Origin: Polypterus senegalus
Taxonomy: Eukaryota
Reading direction: 5' to 3'
Length of the DNA: 64,000 nucleotides
Assembly: GCF_016835505.1 (NCBI RefSeq)
Contig: NC_053155.1
Coordinates: forward strand, 74,660,088-74,724,087
Both the position numbers and the translations under genes were made by a program. Below the pieces are notes generated by a model, which saw nothing but the letters and a program-made list of their open reading frames with translations, did not search any database and had not been told where the DNA came from. This document shows, piece by piece, positions 27,101 through 38,600 of this stretch (positions are counted from its first letter, which is position 1; every line of letters begins with the position of its first letter).

Positions 27101-27552
27101 TAGTACTAGGGTGTTGTGCCGTGTTAGCCATAATGAATGTAGTGACAAGTTAAGCAAAATGACTGAGGAGTCAAAATGAGTGAGGAGGGCCCTGTCCTCC
27201 TCCCTGCAGCCCAATGAGTCTCTTTCAGATTCACGCTAATAAATTGGTACCGCAAGCGAACTATGATACTTACCACAATGAGAAAGTCGCAAAATCAACG
27301 GAATGTTCAAGCAAATTATAGGGAAAAACCCGATCTAAATGTGTTAAGTAGTTCTCTCCTGAAAAGCAGACAGACATACAAACAGCTCTAAAAAACTATA
27401 AGAAATTTTGCTCTTGGACCACAAAATTTTTAAAACCGTTTTTTAGCGAGCACCTATGGGCCAAGGTTAACCTACATTCCAAATTTCACGTCCCAAGTCC
27501 TCAAGGTTCAGGAGATTTCATGATGAGTGAATCAGTGGTATTTGGCTTTTAC

Positions 27553-29095
27553 AGTGCATCCAGAAAGTATTCACAGCGCATCACTTTTTCCACATTTTAT
27601 TATGTTACAGCTTTATTCCAAAATGGTTTAAATTCATTTGTTTCCTCAGAATTCTACACACAACACCCCGTAATGACGTGAAAAATGTTTACTTGAGATT
27701 TTTGCAAATTTATTAAAAATAAAGAAATTGAGAAAGCACATGTACATAAGTATTCACAGCCTTTGCCATGATTTGATGTTTCCCCTGATCATCCTTGAGA
27801 TGTTTCTGCAGCTTAATTGGAGTCCACCTGTGGTAAATTTAGTTGATTGGACATGATTTGGAAAGGCACACACCTGTCTATATAAGGTCCAGTTGACAGT
27901 TGATAGTTCATGTCAGAGCACAAACCAAGCATGAAGTCAAAGGAATTGTCTGTAGACCTCTGAGACAGGATTGTCTCGAGGCACAAATCTGGGGAAGGTT
28001 ACAGAAAAATTGCTGCTGCTTTGAAGGTCCCAATGAGCACAGTGGCCTCTATCATCTGTAAGTGGAAGAAGTTCGAAACCACCAGGACTCTTTCTAGAGC
28101 TGGCCGGCCATCTACACTGAGCGATCAGGGGAGAAGGGCCTTAGTCAGGGAGGTGACCAAGAACCCAATGGTCAACCCGAAGGACAACCATCTCTGCAGC
28201 AATCAACCAATCAGTTCTGTATGGTAGAGTGGACAGACTGAAGCCACTCCTTAGTAAAAGGCACATGACAGCCCATCTGGAGTTTGCCAAAAGGCACCTG
28301 AAGGACTCTCAAATCATGAGAAACAAAATTCTCTGGTCTGATGAGACAAAGATTGAACTCTTTGGTGTGAATGCCAGGCATCACGTTTGGATCACCAGGC
28401 CAATACCATCCCTACAGAGAAGCATGGTGGTGGCAGCATCATGCTGTGGGGATGTTTTTCAGCAGCAGGAACTGGGAGACTAGTAAAGATGACTGCAGCA
28501 ATGTACAGAGACATCCTGGATGAAAACCTGCTCCAGAGCGCTCTTGACCTCAGACTGGGGCGACGGTTCATCTTTCAGCAGGACAACGACCCTAAGCACA
28601 CAGCCAAGATATCAAAGGAGTGGCTTCAGGACAACTCTGTGAATGTCTTTGAGTGGCCCAGCCAGAGCCAAGACTTGAATCTGACTGAACATCTCTGGAG
28701 AGATCTTAAAATGGCTGTGCACCAATGCTTCCCCTCCAACCTGATGGAGCTTAAGAGGTGCTGCAAAGAGGAATGGGCGAAACTGGCCAAGGGTAGGTGT
28801 GCCAAGCTTGTGGCATCATATTCAAAAAGACTTGAGGCCGTAATTGCTGCCAAAGGTGCATCGACAAAGTATTGAGCAAAGGCTGTGAATACTTATGTAC
28901 ATGTGATTTCTCAGTTTTTTTATTTTTAATAAATTTGCAAAAACCTTAAGTAAACTTTTTTCACATTGTCATTATGGGGTGTTGTGTGTAGAATTCTGAG
29001 GAGAAAAATGAATTTAATCCATTTTGGAATAAGGCTGTAACATAACAAAATGTGGAAAAAGTGATGCGCTCTGAATGCTTTCCGGATGCACTGTA
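27553..29095 (+). mobile_element. Tc1/mariner transposon (family B), copy 1; the transposase is frameshifted and treated as a pseudogene
   Basis: The TIRs are CAGTGCATCCAGAAAGTATTCACAG... (27553-) and ...CTGTGAATGCTTTCCGGATGCACTGTATATG (-29095). The transposase is split across ORFs 28021-28227, 28229-28483 and 28387-28875 (HGGGSIMLWGCF...DNDPKHTAK...). Confidence 0.9.
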
Positions 29096-29400
29096 TATGT
29101 ATAGATTTACTTATTTGTTTTATTTCATATTGCTTACATCACCTACTATTCAACACAAAATGTATGCATATAAAAATTTCTTTCAAGGGCTAGTTTATTA
29201 AAAATGTTATGTTTATAGAATGACAGTAGCATTCACAGACTTTCAAGCAGCACTTTTCCTGGGCTGGGGCCTGCACTTCTATGTACATGTATTTTAAAGC
29301 TGTTTATTGCCTTGTGATATAGTGTCTCATACAGAAGACTTGTAGTAAAAGCTTTGTTTACTTCTAATATGTATAATGTTTTTGTTTTTATCTTTTTTAG

Positions 29401-31132: not shown

Positions 31133-31602
31133 GTAAAGCTAAAGAAAGGTCAGGAATGTATTTTGGTAATGCTTCACTTAACACATGCTGTGACAGTAGC
31201 AGAAAAAGACAAACGAAAATATGTTTTTTTTTTTATATTTATACTACAAGAATAGGATATTCAATGCTGTTCACTTAACTTTTGCAAAAAATCCAGTCAA
31301 GATAATCGTCAAAGTACTACTGTTTACAATACTGCTTTTTAACTGTTTGCATATGTTATTGGTACTCTGTGTGAAGAAAACCTACTAACCTTTAACCAGC
31401 TCCCTGATTTGTTCATAACAATGTCATATACCTCAATTTATTTTTTCATATTTTAAATACTTATTTCATTTTGTCTCTTTGTAAATATTCCTAGTTTTAG
31501 TTTTTATATATTGTATATACTCCAAAACATGGCGAAACATATTATCCCCATGATTAAATTACTTCTACCCATTGATTATAATAGAATATATTTTGAAATA
31601 CT

Positions 31603-33024
31603 ACAGTGCATCTGGAAAGTATTCACAGTACATCACTTTTTCCACATTTTGTTATGTTACAACTTTATTCCAAAATGGATTAAATTCATTTTTTTCCTCA
31701 GAATTCTACAAATAACACCCCATAATGACAACATTAAAAAAGTTTACTTGAGGTTTTTGCAAGTTTATTAAAAATAAAAAAACTGAGAAATCACATGTAC
31801 TGTACATAAGTATTCACAGCCTTTGCTCAATACTTTGTCGATGCACCTTTGGCCGCAATTACGGCCTCAAGTCTTTTTGAATATGATGCCAGAAACTTGG
31901 CACACCTATCCTTGGCCAGTTTCGCCCATTCCTCTTTGCAGCACCTCTTAAGCTCCATCAGGTTGGAGGGGAAGCATTGGTGCACAGCCATTTTAAGATC
32001 TCTCCAGAGATGTTCAGTCAGATTCAAGTCTTGGCTCTGGCTGGGCCACTCAAAGACATTCACAGAGTTGTCCTGAAGCCACTCCTTTGATATCTTGGCT
32101 GTGTGCTTAGGGTCGTTGTCCTGCTGAAAGATGAACCGTCGCCCCAGTCTGAGGTCAAGAGCGCTCTGGAGCAGGTTTTCATCCAGGATGTCTCTGTACA
32201 TTGCTGCAGTCATCTTTCTCTTTATCCTGACTAGTCTCCCAGTTCCTGCTGCTGAAAAACATCCCCACAGCATGATGCTGCCACTACCATGCTTCACTGT
32301 AGGGATGGTATTGGCCTGGTGATGAGCGGTGCCTGGTTTCCTCCAAACGTGACGCCTGGCATTCACACCAAAGAGTTCAATCTTTGTCTCTTCAGACCAG
32401 AGAATTTTGTTTCTCATGGTCTGAGAGTCCTTCAGGTGCCTTTTGGCAAACTCCAGGCAGGCTGCCATGTGCCATTTACTAAGGAGTGGCTTCCGTCTGG
32501 CCACTCTACCATACAGGCCTGATTGGTGGATTGCTGCAGAGATGATTGTCCTTCTGGAAGGTTCTGCTTTCTCCACAGAGGACCTCTGGAGCTCTGACAG
32601 AGTGACCATCGGTTTCTTGGTCACCTCCCTGACTAAGGTCCTTCTCCCCTGATCGCCAGCTCTAGGAAGAGTCCTGATGGTTTCGAACTTCTTCCACTTA
32701 CGGATGATGGAGGCCACTGTGCTCATTGGGACCTTCAAAGCAGCAGAAATATTTCTGTAACCTTCCCCACAAACCTTTGACTTCATGCTTGGTTTGTGCT
32801 CTGACATGAACTGTCAACTGTGGGACCTTATATAGACAGGTGTGTGCCTGTGAATACTTATGTACATGTGATTTCTCAGTTTTTTATATTTTTAATAAAT
32901 TTGGAAAAACCTCAAGCAAACTTTTTTCACTTTGTCATTATGGGGTGTTGTGTGTAGAATTCTGAGTAAAAAAATGAATTTAAAAACTGATGCGCTGTGA
33001 ATACTTTCCGGATGCACTGTATAT
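31603..33024 (-). mobile_element. Tc1/mariner transposon (family B), copy 2, in inverted orientation relative to copy 1
   Basis: The TIRs are CAGTGCATCTGGAAAGTATTCACAG (31604-) and ...GTGAATACTTTCCGGATGCACTGTATATG (-33024). It is more than 90% identical to copy 1 across the TIRs and transposase. Confidence 0.9.
31827..32807 (-). CDS. Tc1-family DD34E transposase ORF of 326 aa, open but with in-frame deletions relative to copy 1
   Basis: The uninterrupted ORF reads MSEHKPSMKSKVCGEGYRNISAALKVPMSTVASIIRKWKKFETIRTLPRAGDQGRRTLVREV...HGSGSIMLWGCF...[12 protein letters not shown]...EWPSQSQDLNLTEHLW.... It lacks the ELSVDLRDRIVSRHKS-like segment and RPSTLS that are present in copy 1. Confidence 0.85.
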   Translation of the reverse strand: MSEHKPSMKSKVCGEGYRNISAALKVPMSTVASIIRKWKKFETIRTLPRAGDQGRRTLVREVTKKPMVTLSELQRSSVEKAEPSRRTIISAAIHQSGLYGRVARRKPLLSKWHMAACLEFAKRHLKDSQTMRNKILWSEETKIELFGVNARRHVWRKPGTAHHQANTIPTVKHGSGSIMLWGCFSAAGTGRLVRIKRKMTAAMYRDILDENLLQSALDLRLGRRFIFQQDNDPKHTAKISKEWLQDNSVNVFEWPSQSQDLNLTEHLWRDLKMAVHQCFPSNLMELKRCCKEEWAKLAKDRCAKFLASYSKRLEAVIAAKGASTKY

Positions 33025-34039
33025 GTGCTAAAGAGACAAATTTCTATTCTGTGGTTAAAAACTATAGTTAACTGCTTAAGTTAAATGTTAAGTTGTTCAG
33101 ACAGTCTTCAGTGAGCTGATATTAAACTGTGACCTTTTAACTGCAAAGATGTTCCATTCATAGAGCAAAAGCAATGGGACTCTGTTTTATATTTTGATTT
33201 ATAATATATATACTAATAAAAGGCAAAGCCCTCACTGACTGACTCACTGACTCATCACTAATTCTCAGAGTTCCCGTGTGGGTAGAAGGCTGAAATTTGG
33301 CAGGCTCATTCCTTACAGCTTACTTACAAAAGTTGGGCAGGTTTCATTTCGAAATTCTATGCGTAATGGTCATAACTGGAAGCTATTTTTCTCCATTTAC
33401 TGTAATGGAGTTGAGCTGGATGGCCGTGGGGGGCTGAGTTTCGTGTGACATCATCACGCCTCCCACGTAATCACGTGAACTGACTATCAACGCAGTACGT
33501 AGAAAACCAGGAAGTGCTCCAAAAAGCGCTAAAGAAAACATGCATTATATAATTGAGAAGGCAGCGAAACAATAAGAAGCGAGCGACTGACATTTACAAC
33601 CATATTCATGAGTGCTGCTACTTCGGAAACAAAGCACGGTGTAAACCTAAAGTTTAAATTAAGTTCATAGACACGCTGCCGCTGGCGTTTGTCATGCCCA
33701 CAGCTAATGCGGGATACAAGTTTAATGAGAGGACGCAGGATATAAACGAGTTTTGATCACTTTGTAATTAAGTTAAAATTGCAGGTTAAAGGCTGTATTT
33801 ATGCAAATTCCGAGAGACTGTGTTTGTGGGGGATTGACAGTTAAGGTGGGTGGGGGAGTCACATCATCATCTCCCCTCCCATTCACCTCATTTGGTGAAG
33901 GACTGTGCTTATGCAGACGAAGATGAGATGGTCAGGGTGGTGTTTGGCAGAAACTGTGCACAGACAAAATGTCAACTCGATCTGAATTGCGCGATCACAT
34001 TCGAAAGCATACATCTTTTCAACTTCTATTTAATCAACA

Positions 34040-34830
34040 CTTAGCATATTCATATGTAAGGCTGCTGCGCAACTCAGCACACCTCCCATGTAATTGACTG
34101 CCTGCCCATATAAGGCCGTTCTTCGCTGTGGCGTGTTCATTCATTTCCTTGCTTTGCCAAAGAAGCAGCCTTTTCATAGGTTCTCCATTGTTTTAGCATA
34201 TGCATAGGTGCAGCTGCTGTGGAAATCAGCACGCCTCCCATATAATTGACTACCTGCCCATATAAGGCCATTCTTCGCTGCGGTGTCTTCATTCGTTTCG
34301 TTGCTTGAACAAGGAAGCAGCGTTCTCACAGCTTCTGCGCTGTTTTATAAACAAACGACATATATTTTTCCTTGCTTCGCCAACGAGGCAACCTTTTTAT
34401 TTAATCCACGGGTTCTGCGCTGTTTTATTGTTCATTTGTTACGATTGTTATACTTATTGTGTACGTATTTTACACTTAGTTTACTGTTCAAGTACCCATT
34501 TCCTTTATTTAATCCGCGGCTTTTCTGCTATTGTTTTGTTCGTTTATTACGTTTATGCTTATTTCATTCACTTTCTTTGCCTGACTGCCTGCCCATAGTA
34601 GGCGCTTAGCAGTTTTTTTGTGAAGCAGCTTTCTCACAGCTTCTGCACTGTTTTATAAATGAACGACATATAAGAAAGTCCTTTTCCTTGCTTCGCCAAC
34701 GAGGCAACCTTTTTATTTAATCCACGGGCTCTGCGCTGTTTTATTGTTCATCTGTTATGATTGTTATAGTTATTGTGTAGATATTTTATACTTTTTTTAC
34801 TGATCAAGTACCCATTCCCTTTATTCTTCC
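34040..34830. repeat. Tandem repeat of about 2.7 units of roughly 270 bp (...cctcccatataattgactacctgcccatataaggcc...ccttgcttcgccaacgaggcaacctttttatttaatccacggg(t/c)tctgcgctgttttattgttcat...)
   Basis: Direct repetition is visible at 34040-34150, 34205-34520 and 34560-34830, with about 90% identity between the second and third units. Confidence 0.85.
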
Positions 34831-34848
34831 AACTGTATCCCTATTAAA

Positions 34849-35622
34849 ATGTCTATTGACGTAATCACCATCAATCAAAGAACTATCACTTACCGAGTGT
34901 TGTCCATGCCCAGAGATGGCGCCTGCCTTTTCCATTCTCTGTGTTACATATTGCATGGCCATATCAGGTTCACTCTTGATATCCAGAGGAACATTGTCTC
35001 TTATGTATTGAATGACTGGGACAGGTTCAAGGTGTGGACTGATGATGGTACAGGAGATAATTATACTGCACAGGAGCACTAGAAGAGTGAAATGCTTAAG
35101 CCCTTCACCTATGGTTCTGCATGTGAGTTGATGGCTGCCGCTGAATTGTTCGGTTGTCGCTTTCAAGTGTACCGAAATGGCCAAATATTTTACACCTTTC
35201 GACAACTGCCAGTGCCTCTTAAACATCTTAGACTCACAGGTGACGATTTCAGTAGTGGACACTTTGATGTTTTTGAATGTTTAAACTCTCAAAAGCTGGA
35301 TGTGAAGTTATCGATGAAACCGGTTGTATGCTTACAACGCTTAACAGATGCCGAATGTCACTTCAACACAAGTCCTACAAATACTGTCGTAATTGAAACA
35401 AACCATGAAACTCAAACGATTATGACAGCAGCAATCCAAGCTGTGAGATTTGAAACAAGATTACTGTTCACATGGCCTACTGTACGTTGCATGCTCAAGA
35501 GTAAGCTCAGCGTACAGCTTGGTCATATTACAACTTGGAGGGCCAAACTCAAAATGTGGTATACAAAGAGATCCTTAACAAATAATTATTGGTATATTTT
35601 CCCTCAGTTTAAAAAGGTTTAA
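34849..35622 (+). CDS. OTU-like cysteine protease ORF (Cys box ...PRDGACLFHSL..., His box ...SSGHFDVF...), interrupted by one in-frame TAG at 35083-35085
   Basis: ORF 34849-35082 and ORF 35092-35622 are in the same frame and separated only by a TAG. The combined translation has OTU hallmarks: DGxCLF(H)SL, then ...YGSACELMAAAELFGCRFQVY (the W/GG..E..A.S...I.V region), then GHFD. Confidence 0.6.
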
Positions 35623-38600
35623 TTTTCTTCTTAATAAAAATTTTAAGGCAGTACTTGCCTGAAGCTGGTATTTTGCTAGTTTTTAATAAGTGTTATTTTG
35701 CATTAAACTTATGTAATTGGTCTGCATGTCTTGGCTGATTGATGTAATAAAGTAATACAAGGCACCTAGTGTGGGCAGATTGCTATTTCTTTCCCGCAGT
35801 ATTAGTGACTAAGACAGGAGTGCCTCCAGTAGTGAGAAACATGGGAAGAAATAGTATGCCATTGATAAATGTCAATAAATAAGATGCATAAGCATCAAGT
35901 GACTAGGGGACACCCATATGCTCAACCCAAAGCTAGCGAGTCCTTATCTAGAGTACTGAGGAGTAACAGGCTATGCAGGGATCACTTATAATCAGTGCTC
36001 AAATGTGTGTATGTTTGGATTGTGTGTGTATGTTCATTTTAAACCACACGAGAGTAGTCCAACCCGTAACAAATATAGTGAGCCTTGCTCACCCTATGAT
36101 ACTACACTAGGTTAAAAAATACAATAAATGATTTCATCACTGAACTCAAGCTCCTGAGCTCCACTATGTGTATCCCTGTTTATTAATTAACTTTACCCTC
36201 TAAATTAGCTTTTTTGTTAATGTTTAAAGCTATATATTGACATCATTATTCACTTGGGAGTATATATCAAGCACCTAGTGTAATATTACTATCCTTTCAT
36301 CTTTCTTGTGGAACTCAGATGTCCTTACTTGAGTCATGGCTCATATCCTATTTGACACAAAATCTTATCTGAAAATGTAATTGACAGACAGCCACATTTT
36401 CTGATTTTTCCTAACTTTTCTAAATAACATGTCCCATGTAATATTATTTTTATTTCTTTATCATTAACATTTCCAAAAACATCTTACTGTCTTCAGAATT
36501 CAGGCAAATTTAACAAATGTGTTAAAGTTAACCGTCTGGAAAACAAACAGCAGTATCAAGTTATGTAACCATTGCTGGTTATTAATATGAATATATCAGG
36601 AGTTCTTAAACATTTTAATTTGATTACCGAAATAAGAAAATCAGTACTATACTGGGACCCAGAAAGAGGACTATTACCATAACGACAGTAAAGCTATACA
36701 TAGAAAAATAACAATGGCCATACAATAAACACAGTAAAGGTTTTTGCTTCCCTTCAAGCTAATTTCTCACATAAGTATTACTAAAAGAAAAAAGTGAAAA
36801 CCAAGCATATTGTTGTTAAATCAATAATTAATATTCAAAACTAACAATGAATTTCAGAGATATATCTTAGCCAGTGTAAATATTTAGTGTGAGCTTTAGT
36901 TAGGCAGAAAGAAAAAAATTCTTCTTTATACCAGGGGCAGCACTAGGTTAAGATGGTTTTCTTAAAGCAAAGTACGAAACTTAACTTAATCTCTCAATGC
37001 ACCAATTAAGCAATAAAATAGTCCAAAAATAATTCATTTATGCCATTTAGTTACCTTGTCTTTGGTAATTTTTTTATATTATTTTTCAGATGAGTTCCAC
37101 CTTTAACAATATCTCTGAATGAGTTGAATTCCACCAAAGTCCACTCTGCAGCCTGTCTTTCCCTTTTGATATTTTCTACTGCTCATGCAGTTCTCAATGG
37201 TCCAACAAACACATCCTTTACACTATCAGTAGATTGACATTAATTGAACCACTTTTAAAAAGTGTTAAGAGAAGAAATTTGTCCTTTGTTAAGCATGTTA
37301 TACTTAACGCAAAATCTTCATTACATGTGTGTTACAGATTTGGATACAATGGATACCACAAGATAATTTTTTCAACCCACACAATAGCTCAGTTTGGTGA
37401 AAAAAAACATCTGGCAACTCTTGGCCAGAGTCCCTTCCCTTCCCTGATTCTTTGGAATGACTAGAAAGAGATCTCTCAATTAAAATTTTTAAATGTCCTC
37501 TCATAGAATTTATTCTAGTTTAGTATGGGCCAAGCACACCACAATTCAACTAAAAATGATTAATATATCACATACATCTTGTTTATGTGTAAAATGTACG
37601 CAGGGAAAGATTTAACCTGGAAGTGTTGTCATCGAGAGTCTACATTGCTAGGCTGTATTTTTTACGAATGCCCTAAATCTAAATCATTTTGGGCAGAGAG
37701 TTTTGCAAATTTCTTGGGTTATCTTGGACATTCACTCCTAATGCATTGATGGCAATATACTATGAAAAATCAGCTGTAATATCCTATCAGCTGGTAGTAT
37801 TTCAATCTGCCTTCTGTAACTCAGTGGAAAAGCTATGTATTATTTTATCTTAAATTCGAAAAAATCTCTTTACGGGGATTTGTTCTGAGCCTTTTCAAAA
37901 CATAACATGAACTCATAAATATAATATTTATAATCCTAAACTATGCATGTTGTGTCTGTGCTCACGTTTTGAGCTCTGTTTGCTTTTTTATCATATATTA
38001 AGCACTGTTGATGGAAAGAAGTAGATTACTGTTCGTAATGGATGAATGCTGAATGTTAGGATATGACATACACAAGCTCACATATTCAGTATATGTGCTA
38101 ATAGCATGGCAACAACATGCATATTTGTAAAATATGAAACTTACAAATGGTGCTGGTAATAACACTACTGTTAGAATCCTTCAAACCCTTAAAAATAAAT
38201 CAAGGACAAAATATCAAAATCAATTAACACCTGACATGTACCACATAAGATCAAACATGATGTTGTTAATATAATGGTCAATTTTGGTCCAGTGAACACA
38301 ACTGACCAAACAAACTTTAAAGCAAAGCTGAAACAATGAAATAATTAATTTCTAAATGTAACCTTCAGAATTCTGGTAGGTGGAATCTTCTCAGTTTGTT
38401 GAGTAGAAAAGCCAACATACAGTATTATTGCAATCCCAATAGTCTATTTTGGTCATTTTAACACCTGACATGAAGTACAAAATACAAAGCATTAACTATG
38501 AGCTCCACAAGCTACAGGTATGGATACTGTTTTGGAGAAAATAAATCATATATACCTTCTTATTTTTTAACTGTATGCATAGACCTTTCTTATGTATATA

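What the first reader, a model, noticed from the sequence alone, without database searches (positions are those of the whole stretch)
33200..35640. CpG-rich composite element of about 2.4 kb with no recognisable TE hallmarks
There is a sharp compositional discontinuity. The unique 5' segment is full of CpGs (cgctgccgctggcgtttg, cacgtaatcacgtgaac, gcgcgatcac). A tandem-repeat block follows, then the OTU ORF, then an AT-rich tail. No TIRs, LTRs, poly-A tail or target-site duplication were evident by eye. It lies directly next to the Tc1 copy that ends at 33024. The structure of a subterminal tandem array plus a single protein ORF is reminiscent of Helentron-type or other rolling-circle non-autonomous derivatives, or of an endogenous viral fragment. 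I cannot assign it to either from sequence alone.
Basis: partly seen in the sequence, partly recalled or inferred. Interest (0 to 1): 0.65.

Follow-up and report, generated by a model that had tools for sequence, protein, structure and literature searches.

The report
Internally deleted Helitron carrying OTU gene
The CpG-rich 2.5-kb block is a relatively young, internally deleted copy of a rolling-circle transposon (a canonical Helitron) that kept its protease-like OTU gene but lost its transposase, so it is an ordinary mobile-element insertion in a bichir-type fish genome rather than something new.

Summary
Window 33207-35668/35679 is sharply CpG-rich (observed/expected 0.72, against 0.27 for the window) and is built as described.

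The claim of "no TE hallmarks" is wrong. The block is a non-autonomous canonical Helitron. Evidence:
- Its first ~100-160 bp are homologous to the left ends of Helitrons in a frog, an aphid and two metagenome contigs. All of these start A|TC.
- The OTU ORF is 48-49% identical to the N-terminal OTU domain of OTU-Rep ORFs (Pfam Helitron_like_N) in the frog and in a Logan contig.
- Just after the OTU linker lie the last 43 codons of a Pif1-type Helitron helicase, frameshifted. They are 60% identical to the aphid element's helicase C-terminus, and the stop codon sits two codons beyond the aphid one.
- A short hairpin followed by CTGG|T and CTAG|T lies 80-95 bp further on.
- At least 29 Polypterus senegalus gene models on about 15 chromosomes contain the same OTU exon. 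Three of them carry the same deletion-junction peptide, so the deleted derivative itself was amplified.

No Helentron features were found: no subterminal inverted repeats above chance, no T|T target, no endonuclease. Exact ends still need genomic copies. This is a new member of a known kind, of low interest.

The parts
33207..33366 (+). Left terminal sequence (LTS) of the Helitron. The 5' end is TATATACTAATAAAAGGCAAAGCCCTCACTGACTGAC..., preceded by host A at 33206.
   Evidence: Gapless 82% match over 98 nt to metagenome contig L025, whose element starts A|TCTATACTTATAAAAGGCAAAGCCC. 67-78% matches to the frog element L003, which starts A|TCTATATAAAGACGAAAGCCC. 17/17 match to the start of L001. 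Multiple alignment. This copy reads T-A where all four relatives read T-C.
33367..34040 (+). CpG-rich unique 5' segment between the LTS and the tandem repeats. By inference it is the promoter or 5' UTR of the element. It contains CACGTG-type motifs and a motif (33447-33471) that recurs in the tandem units.
   Evidence: CpG observed/expected 0.74 for 33200-34040. Repeat families D7 and D8 link it to the 152-bp units. No Rfam match near a gathering score. No similarity to L001-L004. The function is inferred, not shown.
34041..34347 (+). Tandem repeat, 152-bp unit x 2.
   Evidence: TRF period 152, 2.0 copies, 81% matches. Family D2 at 82%. Self-BLAST.
34314..34825 (+). Second repeat block: a ~200-bp segment present twice at ~310-bp spacing (34314-34509 and 34622-34825), with a 51-bp sub-repeat present three times.
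   Evidence: Self-BLAST 88% over 204 nt. Families D1, D3 and D4. CpG observed/expected 0.89 for 34041-34848. Relatives also carry tandem arrays between the LTS and the OTU ORF: frog 147 bp x 6.3 and x 8.9, and a ~60-bp array in L001.
34849..35300 (+). OTU-like cysteine protease domain, which is the N-terminal domain of the ancestral OTU-Rep ORF. It is a pseudogene here, with an in-frame TAG at 35080-35082. The catalytic Cys (DGACLF) and His (SGHFDV) motifs are retained.
   Evidence: 48% identity over 144 aa to the N-terminus of the frog 1008-aa OTU-Rep ORF, E=9e-39. 49% identity to P0016, E=6e-41. Pfam and PDB matches.
35301..35446 (+). Linker remnant after OTU (…ETNHETQT / DYDSSNPSCEI), with a 1-nt frameshift relative to other copies near 35420. 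The internal deletion junction lies at about 35443-35450.
   Evidence: The linker motif ETNHE aligns with P0016 and P0017. P0001, P0002 and P0003 read ...ETNHETQTDYDSSNPSCEI or its one-residue variants (CEK in P0002, SINPSCEI in P0003), which is frame 1 of the window at 35421-35460. The helicase alignment starts at 35446/35447.
35447..35585 (+). C-terminal remnant of the Pif1-type Helitron helicase (DLKQDYCSHGLLYVACSRVSSAYSLVIL / GQTQNVVYKEILNK*). It has one frameshift at about 35540. The ancestral stop codon region is retained.
   Evidence: 26/43 identical to the last 43 residues of the aphid element's helicase, pairwise BLASTP E=5e-18. tblastn E=1e-7 against a 3.2-kb target. 64% nucleotide identity to the frog helicase end.
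35586..35679 (+). AT-rich 3' UTR and right terminal sequence. The hairpin AGGCA-gtact-TGCCT lies at 35646-35660. There are two candidate termini: CTGG|T (35665-35668|35669) and CTAG|T (35676-35679|35680).
   Evidence: The pattern 'perfect 5-bp or longer stem, then 2-12 nt, then CTRR, then T' occurs only 5 times in 128 kb of both strands, and once in 33-37 kb. 35666-35680 aligns with the relatives' GGGTAWWTCAGCTAG|T with 4 edits in 16; 30-40 such hits occur in 128 kb, so this is weak. The hairpin is weak: -4.4 kcal/mol, z = -1.0.

Best explanation
Window 33207-35668/35679 (+ strand) is a non-autonomous, internally deleted copy of a canonical (Helitron1/HLE1-type) Helitron. It belongs to a lineage whose transposase ORF begins with an OTU cysteine-protease domain.

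The ancestral element had this order: left terminal sequence, tandem-repeat-bearing 5' region, OTU-linker-Rep(HUH)-Pif1 helicase, short 3' UTR, hairpin, CTRR. A deletion of roughly 4 kb or more fused the post-OTU linker to the last ~45 codons of the helicase. That deleted derivative was then amplified across the chromosomes of a polypterid fish, most likely Polypterus senegalus.

The following is inferred from the Helraiser experiments, not shown here. Such copies are mobilised in trans. A RepHel from an autonomous relative nicks the top strand at A|TC of the LTS. The helicase peels the strand 5'->3'. The 3' hairpin/CTRR acts as terminator. A circular intermediate forms and is inserted into an AT dinucleotide without target-site duplication.

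The high CpG content reflects a relatively recent insertion that has not yet lost its CpGs by methylation-driven decay, unlike the surrounding DNA and the neighbouring Tc1.

This particular copy is dead. It has a stop codon in OTU, frameshifts, no Rep, and T-A instead of T-C at the 5' end.
For: 1. LTS homology. 33205-33302 matches L025 at 82% without gaps, and L025, L050, L003 and L004 all begin A|TC at the aligned position.

2. The OTU ORF matches OTU domains that are physically fused or adjacent to Helitron_like_N Rep. In L001 the OTU gene is followed by Rep at E=5.5e-60. The frog L003 has a single 1008-aa OTU-Rep ORF. The aphid L004 has OTU+Rep followed by PIF1.

3. Those relatives are true Helitrons. 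They match Helraiser (PDB 7LCC) at E=3.7e-117 (Rep part) and 1.5e-128 (helicase). Their ends are TC...hairpin...CTAG|T.

4. The helicase C-terminal remnant is 26/43 identical, E=5e-18, with the stop two codons beyond the aphid one.

5. A 3' hairpin plus CTRR|T lies 80-95 bp after that stop. The pattern is rare in the window.

6. It is a dispersed family. 29 P. senegalus proteins at 61-100% identity over the parts they cover (mostly 81-91%) lie on contigs of 15 different lengths. Three share the junction peptide.

7. 14 of 21 copies have Tyr at the OTU catalytic Cys. Amplification therefore did not need an active OTU in cis, as expected for trans-mobilised copies.

8. The CpG step coincides with the inferred ends.

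9. Mechanistic facts are from PMC4778049. OTU upstream of RepHel in HLE1 is reported in PMC11417382.
Against: No second genomic DNA copy from the same genome could be fetched, so the ends rest on cross-species homology and motif logic, not on copy alignments or an empty site.

The 5' dinucleotide here is TA, not TC.

The 3' hairpin has only 5 perfect base pairs, and its folding energy is not better than shuffles.

Two CTRR|T candidates 11 bp apart cannot be told apart.

No autonomous OTU-RepHel partner from Polypterus was seen among the protein hits.

The 'young insertion' reading of the CpG excess was not tested against methylation data.
Confidence: 0.88

Rival explanations
1. It is a Helentron/Helitron2 (HLE2) non-autonomous derivative (HINE/DINE-like). 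Such elements typically carry central tandem repeats and are the classical carriers of OTU genes.
For: The literature associates OTU and tandem or minisatellite arrays mainly with Helentrons/HLE2 (PMC4067079; PMC12001565). A 12/14 inverted match exists between the 5' end (33206-33219) and 35586-35599, followed by a palindrome. This superficially resembles the subTIR + 3' palindrome layout.
Against: The 12/14 AT-rich match is one of five comparable hits in a small search space, so it is at chance level. The flanks are A and T, not T/T. The closest full-length relatives end TC...CTAG, insert at A|T, stop right after the helicase with no endonuclease domain, and match Helraiser strongly. HELIANO reports OTU upstream of RepHel in HLE1 too.
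Confidence: 0.05
2. It is an endogenous viral fragment. An OTU protease from a virus, integrated with some flanking viral sequence.
For: OTU domains occur in several virus groups; a viral RNA polymerase chain (6dx2) appears among weak PDB hits. More distant OTU homologues of 580-920 aa carry a region matching Pfam Nucleo_P87, a baculovirus capsid protein.
Against: The best homologues are Helitron-linked at 48-49% identity. A Helitron helicase remnant, LTS and RTS flank the ORF. The unit is dispersed on about 15 chromosomes with the same internal junction. The LTS 16-mer had only 3 exact matches in the viral contig collection, and none showed extended similarity.
Confidence: 0.02
3. It is a host feature. 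Either an unmethylated CpG-island-like promoter with an OTU-domain host gene or pseudogene, where the CpG richness is maintained by hypomethylation rather than youth, or a single-copy captured segment.
For: CpG observed/expected is 0.72-0.89 over about 1.6 kb upstream of an ORF. Many P. senegalus gene models include the OTU sequence as an exon.
Against: G+C is only 41%, below usual CpG-island criteria. The ORF carries a stop and frameshifts. The gene models are chimeras with unrelated host domains such as LRRK2, bromodomain and TauD. The flanking non-coding sequence is homologous to Helitron ends in other phyla.
Confidence: 0.04

Closest known systems
Canonical Helitron (Helitron1 / HLE1), experimentally represented by Helraiser/Helibat and its non-autonomous HelibatN families
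   Same: A left end of the form TCTATA...AAAAG..., a 3' hairpin followed by CTRR, A and T flanks, and no TIRs or TSD. Relatives' RepHel matches Helraiser at E about 1e-117 to 1e-128. The non-autonomous copies greatly outnumber any autonomous ones seen.
   Different: The lineage has an N-terminal OTU protease domain in the transposase ORF, which Helraiser lacks. It has tandem arrays in the 5' region. This copy has TA instead of TC and a very short hairpin.
OTU-bearing HLE1 elements reported by HELIANO (PMC11417382)
   Same: The OTU domain lies upstream of RepHel in elements with HLE1 features. This is exactly the arrangement seen in L003, L004 and L001, and inferred for the ancestor of this copy.
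   Different: That paper does not mention Polypterus (0 occurrences). Whether this family is among their predictions could not be checked.
Heli1Xen1-b, a horizontally transferred Helitron1 family with full copies in Polypterus senegalus and Erpetoichthys (PMC12001565)
   Same: Same host lineage and same superfamily. TC...CTAG ends and a TA-rich LTS start (TATATAAA).
   Different: The RTS hairpin reported for Heli1Xen1 (CCCGTTA...TAACGGG) is absent from 35586-35680. OTU is not mentioned in that paper. This is probably a different family.
Helentron-associated interspersed elements (HINE/DINE-1) and Heli2Xen minisatellite carriers
   Same: They are non-autonomous rolling-circle derivatives in which tandem repeats make up a large part of the element. 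OTU occurs in the autonomous partners.
   Different: Those have subterminal inverted repeats, T|T targets and partners with an AP endonuclease. None of these is found here.

Membership tests
Canonical Helitron (HLE1) | 5' end begins with TC | tested here: not met
   At the position aligned with TC of L025, L050, L003 and L004, the window reads TA at 33207-33208. This is most simply a C>A change in a dead copy. The family consensus could not be obtained.
Canonical Helitron (HLE1) | 3' end is CTRR | tested here: met
   CTGG at 35665-35668 and CTAG at 35676-35679, each followed by T. Which one is the true end is unresolved.
Canonical Helitron (HLE1) | 16-20 nt palindrome about 11 nt upstream of the 3' end | tested here: inconclusive
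   A 15-nt hairpin (5-bp stem) at 35646-35660 lies 8 or 19 nt from the candidate ends. Energy is -4.4 kcal/mol, z = -1.0. The combined hairpin+CTRR+T pattern is rare, 5 in 128 kb. Relatives L003 and L004 also have short hairpins, 12 nt from the end.
Canonical Helitron (HLE1) | Insertion between A and T, with no target-site duplication and no terminal inverted repeats | tested here: met
   A at 33206; T at 35669 or 35680. No flanking direct repeat and no TIR above chance. No empty site was available to prove the point.
Canonical Helitron (HLE1) | RepHel transposase; for non-autonomous copies, remnants of it and termini shared with an autonomous element | tested here: inconclusive
   A helicase C-terminal remnant is present (E=5e-18). 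Rep is absent. The LTS is shared with autonomous elements of other species. An autonomous partner in the same genome was not found with the tools available.
Helentron / Helitron2 (HLE2) and HINE | 11-18 bp terminal or subterminal inverted repeats | tested here: not met
   The best end-to-end inverted match is 12/14 in AT-rich sequence, one of five similar chance-level hits.
Helentron / Helitron2 (HLE2) and HINE | Insertion between T and T | tested here: not met
   The 5' flank is A (33206).
Helentron / Helitron2 (HLE2) and HINE | AP endonuclease fused after the helicase in the autonomous partner | tested here: not met
   The helicase reading frame stops after ...NVVYKEILNK*, two codons beyond the stop in L004 (...NVVYREIL*). 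No endonuclease gene was called downstream in L004.
OTU-like cysteine protease (Pfam PF02338) | Profile match above the curated cut-off, with catalytic Asp/Cys and His motifs | tested here: met
   The window copy scores 15.5 bits, below the cut-off. The family consensus scores 25.7 against 23.3. Relatives score 36-45 bits. DGxCLF and GHFD motifs are present. OTUD3 matches at E=5e-4. Enzyme activity was not tested. 14 of 21 copies have Tyr at the catalytic Cys.
Heli1Xen1-b (PMC12001565) | RTS hairpin CCCGTTA...TAACGGG and at least 80% identity to the family consensus | tested here: not met
   No such hairpin in 35586-35680. The consensus was not available, as the supplements are not held, so the identity criterion could not be tested.
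CpG island | G+C at least 50% with CpG observed/expected at least 0.6 over 200 bp or more | tested here: not met
   Observed/expected is 0.72 but G+C is only 0.41.

The most novel reading that the evidence does not exclude
This is a hitherto undescribed OTU-carrying Helitron1 family. Its left terminal sequence is unusually conserved across very distant hosts: bichir, frog, an unidentified eukaryote in a soil metagenome (82% over 98 nt) and, more weakly, an aphid. That would point to recent horizontal transfer into polypterid fishes. Its OTU-retaining deletion derivative may have been repeatedly exonised into host transcripts, rather than the roughly 29 or more chimeric gene models being mere annotation artefacts.
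Probability: 0.2. Interest if true: 0.4.

Novelty: new member of a known kind. Interest (0 to 1): 0.2.

Why it matters
The main value is for annotation. It shows that an apparently hallmark-free CpG-rich block is a deleted Helitron. It also shows that dozens of 'partial' Polypterus senegalus gene models in GenBank contain this transposon's OTU exon.

It adds a fish example to the recently noted OTU-bearing canonical Helitrons. It documents a left-end motif (TCTATAC[TC]TATAAAAGGCAAAGCCCTCACTGAC) shared across phyla, which could serve as a search handle for this lineage and for horizontal-transfer studies.

It does not open a new mechanistic question.

Tried and rejected
- Fetching other Polypterus copies by exact protein look-up (P0001, P0002, P0005, and the window's own 176-aa ORF): none is on record. 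Copy alignments and empty sites were therefore impossible.
- Self-BLAST of 33100-35800 against the window found no second copy and no paralogous empty site. The RTS and LTS motifs are unique in the window.
- A PDB search with the 45-aa helicase remnant alone gave no hit at E<=10. The remnant was validated instead against the aphid element's helicase.
- An Rfam scan of 32900-36000 gave only one sub-threshold chance match.
- A scan of metagenome and viral contigs with the 16-mer AAAGCCCTCACTGACT returned more than 120 loci. Only L025 and L050 showed extended similarity; the rest are chance matches.
- A search for Helentron-style inverted repeats between the ends found chance-level matches only.
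- The middle region 33360-34860 was compared with L001-L004 and showed no meaningful similarity. The unique segment and the window's tandem units are lineage-specific.
- Long proteins among the OTU hits were checked for an autonomous Polypterus RepHel. They are host-gene chimeras or OTU+P87-like proteins.
- The Heli1Xen1 supplementary sequences are not held.
- L002 (a Rep-only contig) gave nothing useful.

Full report
**Observation**

Over 33200-35640 there are 73 CpGs, giving observed/expected 0.72 at 41% G+C. The whole 64-kb window has 0.27, the adjacent Tc1 0.27 and the next 780 bp downstream 0.16. In a 400-bp scan only one bin outside the block (27201-27600, 0.68) reaches the 0.69-1.12 of the four consecutive bins from 33201.

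The internal layout matches the description. There is a unique CpG-rich segment, then a 152-bp unit repeated twice (34041-34347, 82%), then a ~200-bp segment repeated at ~310-bp spacing (34314-34509 / 34622-34825, 88-92%). An ORF follows at 34849-35622, interrupted by one in-frame TAG at 35080, and then an AT-rich tail.

The ORF is a weak but genuine OTU match. It has DGACLF and SGHFDV motifs. Pfam OTU scores 15.5 bits for this copy and 25.7 bits (cut-off 23.3) for the consensus of its paralogues. OTUD3 in the PDB matches at E=5e-4.

The neighbouring Tc1 is confirmed, with TIRs at 31602-31641 and 32982-33021 and a 326-aa transposase ORF with HTH and DDE_3 domains. It ends at 33021, about 185 bp from the element.

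**Host and copy number**

A protein search with the OTU ORF returned 31 hits. Of these, 29 are 'partial' Polypterus senegalus GenBank proteins, mostly 81-91% identical over the part they cover (range 61-100%). They sit on contigs of 15 different chromosome-scale lengths and are fused to unrelated host domains (the extra chimeras scanned came from the representative search and were not assigned to a species).

The window therefore comes from a polypterid fish, most likely P. senegalus, and the OTU sequence is part of a dispersed repeat. P0001, P0002 and P0003 lie on three different chromosomes. P0001 ends ...ETNHETQTDYDSSNPSCEI, and the other two have one-residue variants (CEK in P0002, SINPSCEI in P0003). 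This is the window's frame-1 reading across 35421-35460, the junction discussed below. The same rearranged unit was therefore amplified.

**What the OTU belongs to**

The two closest non-Polypterus homologues led to the answer.

- P0016 (49% identity) lies on a Logan contig (L001). It is followed immediately by an ORF with Pfam Helitron_like_N at E=5.5e-60.
- Searching with that Rep found more than 3,000 relatives in frogs, insects, spiders and other animals.
- In the frog Eleutherodactylus coqui (L003), a single 1008-aa ORF starts MSIEFI... with an OTU domain. It is 48% identical to the window ORF from the first Met (E=9e-39) and continues into Rep. The helicase lies downstream of a hAT insertion.
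- In the aphid Metopolophium dirhodum (L004), an OTU+Rep gene is followed by a 775-aa PIF1 helicase gene.
- The frog OTU-Rep ORF and the aphid helicase match the solved Helraiser transposase (7LCC) at E=3.7e-117 and 1.5e-128.

**Helicase remnant and deletion**

The aphid helicase ends ...GIDVREDCFSHGQFYVACSRVSMPTNLVILAPTGKTSNVVYREIL*. In the window, right after the OTU linker, frame 3 reads DLKQDYCSHGLLYVACSRVSSAYSLVIL. After one frameshift, frame 1 reads GQTQNVVYKEILNK*.

The joined 43 residues are 26/43 identical to the aphid C-terminus (pairwise E=5e-18; tblastn E=1e-7). The DNA is 64% identical to the frog helicase end.

An internal deletion therefore joined the post-OTU linker (about 35443-35450) to the last ~45 codons of the helicase. 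All of Rep and almost all of Hel were removed, about 4 kb by the aphid element's coordinates.

**Left end**

Window 33195-33366 aligns at 67-78% with the frog element's 5' region, including AAAGCCCTCACTGACTGACT. The frog element begins ...tttata|TCTATATAAAGACGAAAGCCC. A metagenome scan with that 16-mer gave mostly chance hits, but two contigs showed extended similarity:

- L025 is 82% identical to 33205-33302 without gaps and starts ...gtta|TCTATACTTATAAAAGGCAAAGCCC.
- L050 carries two such starts, each A|TC.

The aphid element starts gta|TCTCTATATATAAGAGAAAG. In the multiple alignment the window's 33207-33208 (T-A) align with TC, and 33206 is A. The 5' end is therefore 33207, with a C>A difference at the second base in this copy.

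In the frog, the unit homologous to window 33258-33400 is expanded into 147-bp tandem arrays. L001 also has a ~60-bp array upstream of OTU. Tandem arrays between the LTS and the ORF are thus a recurrent trait of the lineage, though their sequences differ.

**Right end**

The relatives end with a short hairpin, then 12 nt, then CTAG|T:

- L004: CCCGgcaacgaCGGGtaattcagCTAG|t
- L003...gcgaagccgggtatatcagCTAG|t

In the window, 60 bp after the helicase stop, there is AGGCAgtactTGCCT (35646-35660). It is followed by GAAG-CTGG|T (end 35668) and, 11 bp later, CTAG|T (end 35679).

The pattern 'perfect 5-bp or longer stem, then 2-12 nt, then CTRR, then T' occurs 5 times in 128 kb. This is the only instance in 33-37 kb, giving roughly a 3% chance of one falling within 500 nt on the right strand.

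The stretch 35666-35680 aligns with the relatives' GGGTAWWTCAGCTAGT with 4 edits in 16. That is common enough (30-40 hits per 128 kb) to be only weak support. The hairpin itself is weak, at -4.4 kcal/mol and z = -1.0.

I cannot decide between 35668 and 35679 without other genomic copies. Both candidates are flanked by T, and no TSD or TIR is present.

**Helitron versus Helentron**

The literature ties OTU and tandem arrays mainly to Helentron/HLE2 (PMC4067079). The HELIANO study, however, found OTU upstream of RepHel in HLE1 as well (PMC11417382). All testable discriminators here favour HLE1:

- A|T rather than T|T flanks.
- TC/CTAG ends in the relatives.
- No inverted repeats above chance between the ends.
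- A helicase ORF that stops where the aphid one does, with no endonuclease.

A known Helitron1 family of P. senegalus, Heli1Xen1-b (PMC12001565), has an RTS hairpin CCCGTTA...TAACGGG that is absent here.

**How it works (inferred)**

By analogy with Helraiser (PMC4778049), a RepHel supplied in trans would act as follows:

1. It cleaves the top strand between the flanking A and the LTS.
2. It unwinds the strand 5'->3'.
3. It terminates at the hairpin/CTRR.
4. It forms a circle joining the two ends.
5. It inserts into an AT dinucleotide.

In that system the LTS is essential and the RTS only modulates efficiency.

Among the Polypterus copies, 14 of 21 have Tyr at the OTU catalytic Cys, 6 have Cys and 1 has Ser. 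The most prolific subfamily therefore carried a dead protease. This fits passive, trans-mobilised amplification in which the OTU ORF is a passenger.

The window copy belongs to the Cys-retaining minority. It has a stop at codon 78 and is 92% identical to the family consensus.

The CpG excess, confined to the element, is best read as incomplete CpG decay in a comparatively recent insertion. Hypomethylation was not excluded.

**Verdict**

It is a new member of a known kind and of low interest. The remaining uncertainties are the exact 3' terminus, the TC/TA issue and the identity of the autonomous partner. All three could be resolved by a copy search in the host assembly.

Noticed in passing
window 31602-33021 and 27550-29100: A Tc1/mariner element with 40-bp TIRs and an uninterrupted 326-aa transposase ORF (HTH_Tnp_Tc3_2, HTH_SB, DDE_3). 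A second copy of the same family, about 85% identical, lies in the opposite orientation about 2.5 kb upstream.
   Followed up: partly
Polypterus senegalus proteins P0001-P0031; unassigned chimeras P0033, P0036, P0038, P0151: Dozens of GenBank 'partial' gene models named after host genes (ANX10, ARTN, MCE1, CLPX and others) contain this Helitron's OTU exon fused to unrelated host domains. This is either widespread annotation contamination or exonisation.
   Followed up: partly
OTU codon 26 (window 34924-34926) across paralogues: 14 of 21 Polypterus copies have Tyr in place of the OTU catalytic Cys, 6 have Cys and 1 has Ser. The dominant subfamily carries a catalytically dead protease.
   Followed up: yes
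P0063, P0100, P0106, P0128, P0130, P0137, P0139, P0140, P0144: More distant members of this OTU family are 580-920-aa proteins. Their C-terminal part matches Pfam Nucleo_P87 (baculovirus capsid protein P87) at E down to 1e-16, and they have no Helitron Rep. What these are, and whether they sit in Helitrons, is unexplained.
   Followed up: no
L003 5158-7659 and 13585-16104: In the frog locus, two Helitron 5' regions lie head-to-head, each with a 147-bp tandem array (8.9 and 6.3 units) homologous to window 33258-33400. A hAT transposon (zf-BED + hAT dimerisation domain) has inserted between Rep and Hel.
   Followed up: partly
L050 860-960 (minus strand): Two Helitron left ends lie 60 bp apart. 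Each is preceded by the same 13 nt (ctaataataatca|TC...), and the first is truncated after about 20 nt. This looks like a tandem or aborted re-initiation at the LTS.
   Followed up: no
L004 14850-14940: The aphid element's 3' UTR contains three direct copies of TTATTATATA[CA]CTATTAAA (the third has AACT for ACCT). The motif resembles the lineage's LTS start (TCTATACCTATAAAAGG). The sequence is AT-rich, so this may be chance.
   Followed up: no
window 14001-14400: This bin has the highest CpG count in the window (17 CpGs, G+C 0.58, observed/expected 0.51). It may be an exon or a CpG-island edge. It was not examined.
   Followed up: no
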